This document shows positions 12,648 through 17,568 of a stretch of 64,000 bases of DNA, one piece after another. This stretch comes from an uncultured Bacilli bacterium (lineage in GTDB: Bacteria > Bacillota_I > Bacilli_A > RFN20 > CAG-826): NCBI GenBank assembly GCA_944372115.1, contig CALVYH010000005.1:11812-75811 (forward strand), given 5' to 3'. Both the position numbers and the translations under genes were made by a program. The notes beneath the pieces were generated by a model. That model was not told where the DNA came from. It saw nothing but the letters and a program-made list of their open reading frames with translations, and did no database searches. How positions within the stretch are numbered: position 1 is the first letter of the stretch; every line of letters starts with the position of its first letter.

Positions 12648-12694
12648 TCATGCTTAATTATTTATCTTTAAATAGTAAGCATGACTTTTATTTT
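12648..12694 (+). terminator. Rho-independent terminator of the six-gene operon
   Basis: A 9-bp stem tcatgctta (12648-12656) / taagcatga (12676-12684) is followed by cttttatttt. Confidence 0.65.
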
Positions 12695-12742
12695 CTAGTT
12701 GAAAATAAAGTTCAAATAAGATTTAATAATTATCGGTTTGCT

Positions 12743-12823
12743 AGAGTGTCTATTATTAATATTAATAAAAATAAAATATTAATAATTCCCATGACTAACC
12801 ACTCTTAAAACAAAACAGGGGGA
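12743..12823 (+). promoter_or_regulatory. Candidate preQ1 riboswitch (class I-like P1 and A-rich tail) with an embedded AT-rich hairpin, upstream of queT
   Basis: P1 is AGAGUG (12743-12748) / CACUCU (12800-12805). The 3' part CUAACCACUCUUAAAACAAAACAGGGGG resembles known preQ1-I aptamers (B. subtilis ...CUACACCCUCUAUAAAAAACUAAGG; T. tengcongensis ...CCCCAGUUAACAAAACAAGG). The tail runs into the SD GGGGG (12818-12822), 13 nt before the ATG. A 12-bp hairpin is inserted at 12752-12763 / 12775-12786. Confidence 0.5.
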
Positions 12824-12835
12824 TATATTTTAATT

Positions 12836-13444
12836 ATGGAAAAAGTTAGTTCCAACGAAAAAAAGACTTTTCGTGAATCTTCAAAGTCTTTTTTTAAAGA
12901 TTTCTTTAGTGTAAAAATGATTACACTAAATGCATTTGTTGCTGCATTATATGCTGTATTAACTATTGTTTGTTATCCACTTTCTTATAGTTATATGCAA
13001 CTTAGATTTTCAGAATTATTAAATCTTTTAGTATTTTTTAATCCTTCATATACTTTAGGATTAACAATTGGTTGTTTATTATCAAATTTAATGTCTTCAG
13101 CAGGAATATTTGATATTACTTTAGGTACATTAGCAACATTTATTTCTTGCTTAATTATGATTTTATTTTCTAAATTAACTAAGAATTTATTTTTTAGTGG
13201 GTTAATTCCTTGTATTGTTAATGCTATTACAGTTCCTTTTATTATTTATTTAGCTTCAAGTGGAACAAGTGATGCCTTTAATTTAGAAGCTCCAATTTTC
13301 TTTATTATGGGAGGATGGACTTTTTTAGGTGAATTTATTGCAATAAATATTATTGGTTATAGTGTTTTTATGCTCTTGGCTAAAAAATATAAAGGATTTC
13401 AACAATTATTTAACGCAAATTATAATTTAGATTTTAAATGGTAA
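12836..13444 (+). CDS. queT: Queuosine precursor transporter QueT (ECF S-component-like)
   Basis: It is a 202-aa, roughly 5-6 TM protein with a QueT-like N-terminus (MITLNAFVAALYAVLTIVCYPLSYSYMQLRFSELLNLL). It sits directly upstream of tgt-queA-queH and downstream of the preQ1-like leader. Confidence 0.8.
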   Translation: MEKVSSNEKKTFRESSKSFFKDFFSVKMITLNAFVAALYAVLTIVCYPLSYSYMQLRFSELLNLLVFFNPSYTLGLTIGCLLSNLMSSAGIFDITLGTLATFISCLIMILFSKLTKNLFFSGLIPCIVNAITVPFIIYLASSGTSDAFNLEAPIFFIMGGWTFLGEFIAINIIGYSVFMLLAKKYKGFQQLFNANYNLDFKW

Positions 13445-13479: not shown

Positions 13480-13504
13480 GCTACCAAAATAATGGTAGCT
13501 TTTA
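13480..13504 (+). terminator. Terminator after queT
   Basis: A 7-bp stem gctacca / tggtagc with a 6-nt loop is followed by tttt. Confidence 0.55.
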
Positions 13505-15939: not shown

Positions 15940-17568
15940 ATGGATAAAGAAATTAATAATTATTATTTAGAATTTGTAAAAGAATATAAAGAGATTAGAA
16001 AAAAAGAAGAAGGAAAACCAAAATTACTTCTTCATGTTTGCTGTGGACCATGTAGTGCATATCCACTTGTTTTTTTACAAGATTTATTTGATATTACAAT
16101 TCTTTATTCAAATTCAAATATTTATCCAAAAGAAGAATATGATAAAAGACTTTATAATTTAAAAAGATATGTTAACGAAATAAATTTAAAGTTTAATAAA
16201 CATATTTTAGTGATTGAAGATAATTATGATTATGATTCTTTTAAAGAAGATTTACTTCCTTTTAAAAATCAAAAAGAAGGATTAAATAGATGTAAAATTT
16301 GTATCGCTAAAAGAATGAAGCGTTTATTTATAGTTGCAAAAGAAAGAAATTTTAAATATGTTACAACAGTAATGTCTATTTCTAGAAATAAAGATGCTGT
16401 TTATATTAATAAAATCGGTAAAGCGATTGAAAATAATTTATATAAAAATGAAATTGAATTTATTTATACTGATTTTAAAAAGAATGATGGTCAAGAAATC
16501 GGTATAAAAATTGCTAAAAAATATAATTTATATCGACAAGATTATTGTGGATGTGAATTTTCTCTTCCTTTAGATAAAAGGGAAGAGAAAATTATAGATA
16601 TCTCAATAGTTTTATTAATAAAAGATAACGATAAAGAAGAATATTTAAAAAAGTGTTTAGATAGTTTAATTATTCAAGAAGGCGATATAGCTTATGAGAT
16701 ATTTGTGCTTATTAATGATAAAGAAAAAGAAAAACTTGAAATAATTAATGAATATAAAAATAAATATAACGACTTATTTAATGTTCATATTTTATCTTCT
16801 TCATTATTTTTAGATATATCAAATATTAAAAATTACGCTTTAAAAAATGTTAAAGGAAGATATATTGCTTTTGTTGAATCAACTAGTTATGTCTCTAAAG
16901 ATTTTTTAAGTGTTAATTATAAAGTTGCTTTAAAAAATAACGCCGATGTAGTTAATTTTTTATATAAAAATATAAAAGAAAATAAAAAAGTTAGTTCATT
17001 TAATCCTCGTTTTTATTTAACTAAATTTTATAATGAAGGCAATAAAAAAAGAATATTGAAAGCTTTATTTAATGATATTTTTGTTAGAGGATATATTTTT
17101 AATAAGTTCTTTAAAAAAGATTTTTTAAAGAACCAAAATATCTTTTTTATGGGTGAAAGTTCATGTATGGAAGATCTTTTCTTTTCATATCTAACTTTTT
17201 TATATTCTAAAAAGGTAGTTTTTATTAATAAAACTTTATATTTTAGAAATAAAAAAGCTGAATTAGAAAAGTTTGATATAAATAAATTCTCTCAAAAGTT
17301 AATTAATTCGTGGTTTTTAATGCGCTATGTTTCAATTAAAGAAGGTTTTAAAAATATTGGAAATTGTTCTTTTTTACCTAAAACAATAATGCTTTCTTTT
17401 AGTGGTTTAAAATTTTATAAAAATTTAGATATTTCTTATTTCTCATATTTAAAAAAGAATTCAAAACAGTTAAAAAAATTAGTTAAAAATGAATATAAAT
17501 ATGAAGGTGAAGAGTGGGAGAAGGCTCTTTATATTTATCTTGAAAAAAGCAAAGACAATCACTATTAA
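15940..17568 (+). CDS. queH: Epoxyqueuosine reductase QueH (DUF208) fused to a C-terminal GT2-like glycosyltransferase domain
   Basis: The N-terminal 210 aa or so carries QueH motifs: HVCCGPCS, NRCKICIAKR, TVMSISRNKD and YCGCEFS. From about nt 16590 a GT-A/GT2-like domain follows: ISIVLLIKDNDKEEYLKKCLDSLIIQ...GRYIAFVESTSYVSKDF, where ES(T) replaces the usual D(S)D. The frame is continuous across the junction. Confidence 0.8.
   Translation: MDKEINNYYLEFVKEYKEIRKKEEGKPKLLLHVCCGPCSAYPLVFLQDLFDITILYSNSNIYPKEEYDKRLYNLKRYVNEINLKFNKHILVIEDNYDYDSFKEDLLPFKNQKEGLNRCKICIAKRMKRLFIVAKERNFKYVTTVMSISRNKDAVYINKIGKAIENNLYKNEIEFIYTDFKKNDGQEIGIKIAKKYNLYRQDYCGCEFSLPLDKREEKIIDISIVLLIKDNDKEEYLKKCLDSLIIQEGDIAYEIFVLINDKEKEKLEIINEYKNKYNDLFNVHILSSSLFLDISNIKNYALKNVKGRYIAFVESTSYVSKDFLSVNYKVALKNNADVVNFLYKNIKENKKVSSFNPRFYLTKFYNEGNKKRILKALFNDIFVRGYIFNKFFKKDFLKNQNIFFMGESSCMEDLFFSYLTFLYSKKVVFINKTLYFRNKKAELEKFDINKFSQKLINSWFLMRYVSIKEGFKNIGNCSFLPKTIMLSFSGLKFYKNLDISYFSYLKKNSKQLKKLVKNEYKYEGEEWEKALYIYLEKSKDNHY

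What the first reader, a model, noticed from the sequence alone, without database searches (positions are those of the whole stretch)
12743..12823. preQ1-I-like riboswitch upstream of queT carrying an embedded 12-bp AT hairpin
Seen in the sequence: P1 is AGAGUG/CACUCU. The loop 3' part is CUAAC, with a C directly before the P1 3' strand (the position of the ligand-pairing C in class I aptamers). The tail UAAAACAAAACAGGGGG merges into the SD, 13 nt from the queT ATG. The 3' half is close to the B. subtilis and T. tengcongensis class I sequences as I remember them.

The 5' part of the loop is interrupted by a perfect 12-bp hairpin, AUUAUUAAUAUU (12752-12763) / AAUAUUAAUAAU (12775-12786). Canonical class I aptamers are only about 34 nt and have no such insertion. 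An embedded extra hairpin is a feature of class II, which is the class usually found before queT/COG4708.

A CCC at 12888 to 12890 does not apply here; the relevant CCC is at 12788-12790 and could pair with the SD G-run to give a translational off switch.
Basis: partly seen in the sequence, partly recalled or inferred. Interest (0 to 1): 0.55.

Follow-up and report, generated by a model that had tools for sequence, protein, structure and literature searches.

The report
Divergent preQ1-I-like riboswitch before queT
The leader of this gut bacterium's queT transporter gene is a real, conserved RNA pseudoknot built like a class I preQ1 riboswitch that hides the ribosome-binding site, but it is too divergent for the Rfam model to detect, and in this lineage it carries an extra hairpin in one loop.

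Summary
No Rfam family matches the leader, even at E<=10 on a 281-nt stretch.

The leader is nevertheless conserved before queT in all 30 loci fetched from the genus, in a second family of the same order, and in at least 45 species of the GTDB genome collection. These are uncultured gut Bacilli, with records labelled Ca. Onthovivens, Ca. Enterosoma and Clostridium sp. CAG:568.

- **P1:** five of its six pairs covary, and 99.7% of cells are paired.
- **P2:** CCCAUG pairs with CAGGGG, which covers four of the five Gs of the Shine-Dalgarno G-run.
- **Pocket positions:** every position the 2024 review names for the class I pocket is invariant. These are the closing G-C pair, the following U, 'AC' before the P1 3' strand, and the A-rich L3.
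- **Bridge forms:** relatives with a CCUUG/CAAGG P2 score 11-28 bits on RF00522 and link this leader to canonical preQ1-I.
- **Hairpin:** the 12-bp AT hairpin is an optional insert in loop L1, found in one subclade. Its ten sequence versions all fold.

The most likely function is a preQ1-sensing translational OFF switch. I class it as a new variant of a known kind. Ligand binding is untested. The scan noted the same motif before on another genome (e1-1474562).

The parts
12699..12729 (+). Putative promoter: TTGAAA (12699-12704) followed by an AT-rich -10 region (TTTAATAAT, 12722-12730 at most). It would place the transcript start a few nt upstream of P1.
   Evidence: Read from the sequence. 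The same TTGAAA-17-TTTAAT arrangement is present in L018 and L019, and a clear TATAAT lies 7-9 nt before the motif in most other relatives. The consensus scanner did not list it. Inferred, not shown.
12743..12748 (+). P1 5' strand, AGAGUG. G12748 is the invariant closing G.
   Evidence: It pairs with 12800-12805. Five of six pairs show changes on both sides and 99.7% of cells are paired across 52 distinct sequences. RNAalifold predicts the same helix on its own.
12749..12751 (+). The conserved start of loop L1, UCU. The first U is invariant in all 89 aligned sequences.
   Evidence: Alignment A3.
12752..12787 (+). Lineage-specific insert in L1: a perfect 12-bp A/U hairpin (arms 12752-12763 and 12775-12786, loop 12764-12774) plus a linker U at 12787.
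   Evidence: it dominates the centroid fold; ten distinct inserts all fold as perfect 7-13 bp stems; 9 of 11 rows of one QueT clade; the sequence is unique in the genome.
12788..12793 (+). P2 5' strand (anti-SD), CCCAUG.
   Evidence: It is complementary to CAGGGG at 12816-12821. Relatives have CCUUG/CAAGG or CCCAUUG/CAAGGGG, so an inserted U is matched by an inserted A.
12794..12799 (+). Loop L2, ACUAAC. C12799 is the candidate ligand-pairing (specificity) cytosine, and it is preceded by A as in type II.
   Evidence: 'AC' before the P1 3' strand is invariant in A3. Its role is taken from the review PMC11625349.
12800..12805 (+). P1 3' strand, CACUCU.
12806..12815 (+). A-rich loop L3, UAAAACAAAA. 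The last two As before the P2 3' strand are invariant.
   Evidence: The Rfam preQ1-I consensus has a comparable tail (AUAAAAAACUAAGG, shown).
12816..12822 (+). P2 3' strand CAGGGG (12816-12821), overlapping the Shine-Dalgarno G-run (12818-12822).
   Evidence: It lies 13 nt before the ATG at 12836.
12836..13444 (+). queT, the regulated gene (a queuosine-precursor transporter, 202 aa).
   Evidence: Pfam PF06177, E 1.2e-34.
13480..13499 (+). Terminator-like hairpin after queT, followed by a T run on either strand. It makes queT a one-gene unit, separate from tgt-queA-queH.

Best explanation
The queT leader is a translational OFF riboswitch with the architecture of class I preQ1 riboswitches and the type II signature ('AC' before the P1 3' strand).

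It is an H-type pseudoknot laid out as follows:
- P1: 12743-48 with 12800-05
- L1: UCU plus the insert
- P2: CCCAUG 12788-93 with CAGGGG 12816-21
- L2: ACUAAC
- L3: an A-rich loop

Proposed mechanism: when preQ1 is plentiful it stacks between P1 and P2 and pairs with C12799. That stabilises P2, which holds four of the five Gs of the Shine-Dalgarno G-run, so ribosomes cannot start on queT and import of the precursor is shut down. When preQ1 is scarce the weak P2 opens and queT is translated.

The 12-bp A/U hairpin is an optional helix inserted into L1 in one subclade. It stands in for the 1-3 linker nucleotides found in relatives. It probably loops out or stacks on the far end of P2, and it offsets the entropic cost of the enlarged loop.

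Shown here: the conservation, the P1 covariation, the P2 complementarity to the SD, the gene context, and the fact that no terminator-like site was found between aptamer and ATG.

Inferred: the ligand, the direction of control, and the role of the hairpin.
For: 1. **Gene context.** QueT lies downstream, followed by tgt, queA and queH. The genome (96% complete) has no QueF match and only a weak partial QueC-like match inside a 511-aa ORF. The organism therefore probably depends on an imported precursor.

2. **Conservation.** All 30 queT loci fetched from the genus carry the motif 8-20 nt before the start codon. My covariance model R1 finds exactly one copy in the own genome (63.8 bits). It finds hits in 18 of 151 genomes sampled from the order, in two families. 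The eight hits outside the genus whose downstream ORF I ran through Pfam all precede QueT. An exact-pattern scan of 185,579 species genomes listed 80 of its 106 matching stretches, and 45 of those are true copies, all in uncultured gut Bacilli-type MAGs.

3. **P1.** Five of six pairs covary (CG/AU/GC, AU/UA/CG/GC, UA/GC/CG) and 99.7% of cells are paired. None of 500 shuffles reaches the observed covariation score, and sliding the partner columns drops pairing to 40-57%. RNAalifold recovers P1.

4. **P2.** CCCAUG/CAGGGG is present in every member of that type. Five species have CCCAUUG together with CAAGGGG, a matched insertion. Relatives have a perfect CCUUG/CAAGG. One pair switches C-G to U-A and the A.G step becomes U-A.

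5. **Pocket residues.** The positions the review names for class I recognition are invariant in all 89 aligned sequences: the closing G-C of P1, the U after P1, the specificity C preceded by A, the A-rich L3, and a G-C pair at the P1-proximal end of P2.

6. **Link to canonical preQ1-I.** RF00522 scores fall in steps: 41-53 bits for canonical elements, four of five before queT-like ORFs, in the same class; then 28.2 (L193), 12.3 (L063) and 11.4 (L067) for CCUUG forms; then nothing for L053, L030 and the window. R1 detects all of these.

7. **Control level.** No terminator-like site lies between the aptamer and the ATG. P2 alone is weak (about -5 kcal/mol as a duplex), which fits a helix that needs ligand to hold.
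Against: - No Rfam covariance model for preQ1-I, -II or -III matches the window, even at E<=10.
- Nothing here tests ligand binding or regulation.
- Covariation in P2 is thin, because its 3' strand is also constrained as the SD.
- The conserved A.G step in P2 and the longer L1 and L2 differ from the solved class I structures, so the pocket geometry is assumed rather than modelled.
- Most of the sequences come from one genus, so counts of cells overstate the number of independent events.
Confidence: 0.8

Rival explanations
1. The fold and the wiring are the same, but the ligand is a different 7-deazapurine or purine. Candidates are preQ0, the queuine base or guanine. In this reading the longer L2, the A.G step and the extended P2 reshape the pocket, which would make this a functionally new subtype.
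For: The organism appears to depend on salvage. The element escapes RF00522 entirely. L2 and P2 differ from canonical forms. Class I aptamers are reported to bind preQ0 only about 17-fold more weakly than preQ1 (review).
Against: Every position named as ligand-contacting in class I is conserved, including the closing G whose O6 contacts the aminomethyl group specific to preQ1. The genome has tgt, queA and queH but no QueF, so preQ1 is the intermediate it can use directly.
Confidence: 0.1
2. The leader is a conserved anti-SD pseudoknot that binds no small molecule. It would be a constitutive translation damper, or the target of a protein or sRNA.
For: No binding data exist. P2 could form without ligand, since its duplex energy is -5.3 kcal/mol.
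Against: Unpaired loop positions (the U after P1, AC before the P1 3' strand, AA before the P2 3' strand) are invariant across two families while the helices vary. That is the pattern expected of a ligand pocket. The element occurs only before queuosine-precursor transporters (QueT, and YhhQ/Vut_1 in the bridge form L065). It grades into canonical preQ1-I.
Confidence: 0.07
3. The AT hairpin is an independent functional element, such as a protein or RNase site, an attenuator, or the remnant of a mobile palindrome, rather than a tolerated loop insert.
For: The stem has been kept as a perfect helix through complete sequence turnover in at least five stem versions. That suggests selection for pairing.
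Against: The sequence is unique in the genome. Only UU follows the 3' arm before CCC, not a U-tract, and the terminator scan listed nothing there. The hairpin is absent from most members, including two inside the carrier clade. Its length varies from 7 to 13 bp.
Confidence: 0.1

Closest known systems
preQ1-I riboswitch, type II (Rfam RF00522; Thermoanaerobacter tengcongensis and Bacillus subtilis aptamers)
   Same: - It is an H-type pseudoknot.
- P1 is closed by a conserved G-C pair.
- A U follows the P1 5' strand.
- The specificity C is preceded by A, directly 5' of the P1 3' strand.
- L3 is A-rich.
- The P2 3' strand lies in the SD.
- It sits before queuosine-precursor genes, with translational control as in T. 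tengcongensis (review PMC11625349).
- Bridge forms score weakly on RF00522.
   Different: - P1 has 6 bp, against 5 in the RF00522 consensus.
- P2 has 6-7 layers (CCCAUG/CAGGGG with a conserved A.G step) and pairs four of the five SD Gs, rather than the first two SD nucleotides.
- L1 has 4-6 nt, or holds a 20-35-nt hairpin, against 2-3 nt by my recollection.
- L2 has up to 6 nt.
- It scores below about 10 bits on RF00522, whose gathering score is 39.
preQ1-I type III (E. coli)
   Same: It has 'AC' at the specificity position, a 1:1 ligand logic, and complete burial of the SD in a Watson-Crick P2.
   Different: Type III is found almost only in Pseudomonadota, has a small pyrimidine-rich stem-loop and a UU motif, and has an AAGG SD. 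No sequence match was found here.
preQ1-II riboswitch (RF01054, Lactobacillales queT leaders)
   Same: It precedes queT, it sequesters the SD in a pseudoknot helix, and it contains an extra embedded hairpin (P4). P4 is dispensable for binding but affects folding kinetics.
   Different: Class II has a different fold (HLout, P1-P4, about twice the size) and a different recognition mode. By my own knowledge, untested here, its P4 sits in the 3' loop rather than in L1. RF01054 gives no match at this site. In the present motif the hairpin is optional and confined to one lineage.

Membership tests
preQ1-I riboswitch (biological definition, review PMC11625349) | H-type pseudoknot: a P1 hairpin whose loop pairs with the 3' tail (P2) | tested here: met
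   P1 covaries at five of six pairs. P2 is complementary in all members, with one covarying pair and a matched U/A insertion.
preQ1-I riboswitch (biological definition, review PMC11625349) | A strictly conserved cytosine directly 5' of the P1 3' strand ('AC' in types II and III) | tested here: met
   AC is invariant in 89 of 89 aligned sequences. In the window these are A12798 and C12799.
preQ1-I riboswitch (biological definition, review PMC11625349) | A conserved G-C closing pair of P1 (the pocket floor) and a conserved U following it | tested here: met
   Pair 9-62 is G-C in 89 of 89 sequences. Column 10 is U in every sequence.
preQ1-I riboswitch (biological definition, review PMC11625349) | An A-rich L3 running along P1, ending in As before the P2 3' strand | tested here: met
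   UAAAACAAAA in the window. 'AAC' before the purine run is invariant.
preQ1-I riboswitch (biological definition, review PMC11625349) | Location before queuosine synthesis or transport genes | tested here: met
   The motif precedes a QueT homologue at all 30 genus loci. Pfam confirms QueT after the window copy and after all eight out-of-genus hits tested. Vut_1/YhhQ follows the bridge form L065.
preQ1-I riboswitch (biological definition, review PMC11625349) | Selective binding of preQ1 with a ligand-dependent structure change | not testable with these tools
   This needs in-line probing, ITC or a reporter assay.
Rfam RF00522 (PreQ1), operational membership | Covariance-model score at or above the gathering score of 39 bits | tested here: not met
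   No hit at E<=10 on the window, L030 or L053. Bridge forms score 11.4-28.2 bits.
preQ1-II (RF01054) | Match to the P1-P4 HLout model | tested here: not met
   No hit at the site in the window or in the whole genome.
preQ1-III (RF02680) | Match to the class III model | tested here: not met
   cmscan against all 4227 Rfam families found nothing at the site.

The most novel reading that the evidence does not exclude
This is a fourth, undescribed subtype of class I whose remodelled pocket surroundings have shifted ligand preference away from preQ1, for instance to preQ0 or the queuine base scavenged in the gut. The remodelled features are the longer L2, the conserved A.G step, a 6-7-layer P2 that buries most of the SD, and an L1 that accepts a whole helix. 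In the same reading the inserted hairpin stacks coaxially on P2 and acts as a natural tuning module.
Probability: 0.1. Interest if true: 0.7.

Novelty: new variant of a known kind. Interest (0 to 1): 0.42.

Why it matters
**Annotation.** A whole lineage of uncultured gut Bacilli, at least 45 species in the genome collection, regulates queuosine-precursor uptake with a preQ1-I-type element that current Rfam annotation misses completely. Riboswitch censuses therefore undercount this class.

**Structure.** The variant is a natural experiment on the smallest known riboswitch fold. It shows that L1 can take a 20-35-nt helix, and that P2 can grow to cover most of the SD while the pocket residues stay fixed. 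This bears on ideas about folding kinetics (compare P4 of class II) and on aptamer engineering.

**Practical use.** The model built here (R1, from alignment A2; the wider alignment is A3) could seed a new Rfam entry or an extension of the RF00522 seed.

Tried and rejected
- **Rfam at gathering threshold on the whole window:** only two tRNAs.
- **Rfam at E<=10 on 281 nt around the site, and on insert-free relatives:** no preQ1 family hit.
- **RF00522 and RF01054 over the own genome and seven related genomes:** only noise at other sites. Not all first-look candidates are scored in those searches, so I rely on the direct cmscan calls.
- **Single-sequence folding of the leader:** z = -0.10, not informative on its own.
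- **Metagenome scan for further insert-bearing copies:** six matches, none of them a new insert variant.
- **Full-text search for the motif sequences and for a 'preQ1-IV' or queuine riboswitch:** nothing relevant. I therefore cannot exclude that its alignments held similar sequences.
- **Mechanical ORF 12650-12808 overlapping the leader:** rejected as a leader peptide. It starts inside the upstream terminator-like hairpin (12650-12684) and upstream of the inferred promoter, and the upstream sequence is not conserved in relatives.
- **Hairpin as a terminator or mobile repeat:** rejected. Only UU follows the stem, the terminator scan listed nothing there, and the sequence is unique in the genome.

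Full report
**Observation**

- P1 is AGAGTG (12743-48) with CACTCT (12800-05).
- A perfect 12-bp A/T hairpin has arms at 12752-63 and 12775-86 and an 11-nt loop.
- CCC lies at 12788-90.
- CTAAC ends in a C directly before the P1 3' strand.
- The A-rich tail runs into GGGGG (12818-22), and 13 nt separate that run from the ATG at 12836.

The ORF that follows is QueT (PF06177, E 1.2e-34). Then come tgt, queA and a QueH-glycosyltransferase fusion. A terminator-like hairpin after queT (13480-99) makes queT a unit of its own.

**The proposed Infernal test is negative**

cmscan against all 4227 Rfam families finds only two tRNAs in the window. Nothing related to preQ1 appears at E<=10 on a 281-nt stretch around the site. 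Whole-genome searches with RF00522 and RF01054 give only noise elsewhere. Folding the single sequence is uninformative (z = -0.10).

**Comparative evidence is strong**

I searched related genomes with the QueT protein. Of the 36 other genomes sampled from the genus, 31 have queT. All 30 loci fetched, the window's own among them, carry the same leader just before the start codon. Its consensus reads:

C-U-[C/A]G[A/U]GUG UCU N1-4 CCCAUG ACUAAC CAC[U/A]C[G/U] UAAAAUUUAA CAGGGG(G)

A covariance model built from these sequences (R1) gave three results.
- It finds exactly one copy in the own genome (63.8 bits).
- It hits 18 of 151 genomes sampled from the order, in two families. The eight hits outside the genus whose downstream ORF I ran through Pfam all precede QueT.
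- It finds weaker relatives elsewhere in the class.

An exact-pattern scan of one genome for each of 185,579 species gave 106 matching stretches, of which 80 were listed. Of the 80, 45 are true copies, meaning a complementary P1 strand followed by UCU upstream and an ATG downstream. Thirty-three have no complementary P1 strand and two more (L112, L115) are GC-rich chance matches. The true copies lie in uncultured gut MAGs labelled Bacilli, Mollicutes or Firmicutes, Ca. Onthovivens, Ca. Enterosoma or Clostridium sp. CAG:568. A few bins carry labels that are probably wrong, such as Parabacteroides or Gemmiger.

**Structure**

I aligned 89 sequences (52 distinct) to the model. The alignment leans towards P1 by construction, but RNAalifold recovers P1 independently.
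- **P1:** it is paired in 99.7% of cells. Five of six pairs change on both sides, with forms such as AGAGUG/CACUCU, CGUGUG/CACACG, GGUGGG/CCCACC and AGCGCG/CGCGCU. None of 500 shuffles reaches the observed covariation score. Sliding the partner columns drops pairing to 40-57%.
- **P2:** It is CCCAUG (12788-93) with CAGGGG (12816-21), and it contains a conserved A.G step.

Three observations support P2.
1. Five species have CCCAUUG together with CAAGGGG, so an inserted U is matched by an inserted A. The QueT tree suggests one or two events.
2. Relatives have a perfect CCUUG/CAAGG helix.
3. One pair switches C-G to U-A, and the A.G step becomes U-A.

Because the 3' strand is also the SD, more covariation than this cannot be expected.

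**Relation to known classes**

The 2024 review of the preQ1 family (PMC11625349) lists the class I features:
- an H-type pseudoknot;
- a strictly conserved specificity cytosine directly 5' of the P1 3' strand, preceded by A in types II and III;
- a conserved G-C closing pair of P1;
- an A-rich L3;
- a cytosine from L1 that forms a triple with the G-C pair at the ligand-proximal end of P2;
- SD nucleotides inside P2.

All of these positions are invariant in the 89 aligned sequences. In the window they are G12748-C12800, U12749, C12750, A12798-C12799, G12793-C12816 and AA12814-15. The residue-by-residue mapping onto the T. tengcongensis aptamer rests partly on my memory of that sequence.

The link to canonical preQ1-I is graded.
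- Canonical elements in the same class, four of the five before queT-like ORFs, score 41-53 bits on RF00522.
- A CCUUG...CCUAAC...CAAGG form scores 28.2 bits (L193).
- Two more such forms score 12.3 (L063, same family as the window) and 11.4 bits (L067).
- The CCCAUG forms score nothing.
- R1 detects the whole series.

One bridge form, L065, precedes a Vut_1/YhhQ transporter.

The element therefore works like, and descends from, preQ1-I of the type II kind, but it is not a member of RF00522 as that family is modelled. It differs in four ways:
- a 6-bp P1;
- a 6-7-layer P2 that pairs four of the five SD Gs;
- a longer L1;
- an L2 of up to 6 nt.

Class II and class III models do not match. The resemblance to class II, an embedded hairpin before queT, is an analogy only.

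**The hairpin**

It is an insert at a fixed point in L1, after UCU plus 0-2 nt and 1 nt before CCC. I found ten distinct inserts of 23-39 nt. Every one folds as a perfect stem of 7-13 bp, and at least five stem sequences are unrelated to one another.

On a QueT tree the carriers are 9 of the 11 rows of one clade (support 98/91). Two members, L021 and L022, lack the insert. This fits one gain with later loss, or two gains.

The window's insert is unique in its genome. Perfect hairpins of this size are about 25 times more frequent in the genome than in Markov controls (269 loci against about 10), so chance is a poor explanation.

Nearest-neighbour energies show the stem offsetting the cost of the enlarged loop. 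P1 alone gives -3.6 kcal/mol, and P1 with the hairpin gives -10.6 kcal/mol.

I infer a tolerated, structure-preserving loop-out that replaces the 1-3 linker nucleotides. It may stack on the distal end of P2. Its effect, if any, is more likely on folding kinetics, as the review reports for P4 of class II, than on ligand recognition. This is a hypothesis.

**Mechanism**

The putative promoter ends a few nt before P1 (inferred). No terminator-like site separates the aptamer from the ATG. P2 on its own is weak, at about -5 kcal/mol.

The genome (96% complete) has tgt, queA and queH. It has no QueF match, and only a weak partial QueC-like match inside a 511-aa ORF. The cell probably imports preQ1.

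The most likely reading is that preQ1 binding stabilises P2, hides the SD and shuts off queT translation. I put this at about 0.8.

The rivals are these.
- Same fold with another 7-deazapurine as ligand: about 0.1.
- A ligand-independent anti-SD knot or a protein target: about 0.07.
- A hairpin with its own function (about 0.1), which is a question apart from those three.

**Novelty**

I found no paper that holds these motif sequences or that describes a fourth class or type. The paper that defined the preQ1-I types could not be read. The scan's own notes hold the insert-free form of the same motif from another genome (e1-1474562).

**Verdict**

The feature is real and strongly supported. It is a new variant of a known kind and of moderate interest.

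Noticed in passing
window 15940-17568 (+): A single 542-aa ORF joins a QueH epoxyqueuosine reductase domain (PF02677, E 8.6e-52, residues 29-209) to a family 2 glycosyltransferase domain (PF00535, E 9.9e-10, residues 230-381). It lies directly after tgt-queA. This could point to a glycosylated queuosine derivative in a bacterium.
   Followed up: partly
L065:1501-1548 (-) and L065:757-1494 (-): A bridge-type preQ1-I-like element (AGAGUG UUGU CCUUG CUAAC CACUCU ... CAAGGAG) precedes a Vut_1/YhhQ-family transporter in another family of the same class. It did not appear among the RF00522 matches of a whole-genome search of that genome. That search scored only part of its first-look candidates, so the absence is not a firm negative.
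   Followed up: partly
L193, L067, L063, L064 (hit coordinates): Several queT leaders in the class have a clear preQ1-I type II-like pseudoknot (P2 CCUUG/CAAGG, L2 (C/A)CUAAC). L193, L063 and L067 score only 11-28 bits on RF00522, below the gathering score of 39; L064 was not run through cmscan directly. The Rfam model seems to under-detect this whole group.
   Followed up: partly
window 12650-12695 (+): The hairpin CATGCTTA...TAAGCATG followed by ACTTTTATTTT looks like the terminator of the upstream transglutaminase-like operon. The scanner missed it because the stem has few G-C pairs.
   Followed up: no
L077, L089, L101, L106 (record titles): MAG bins titled Parabacteroides goldsteinii, Gemmiger formicilis, Bacteroidaceae and Lachnospiraceae carry queT leaders typical of the Onthovivens-like genus. 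L101 and L106 also sit inside that genus's clade on the QueT tree (L077 and L089 are not rows of the tree). The record labels are probably wrong.
   Followed up: no
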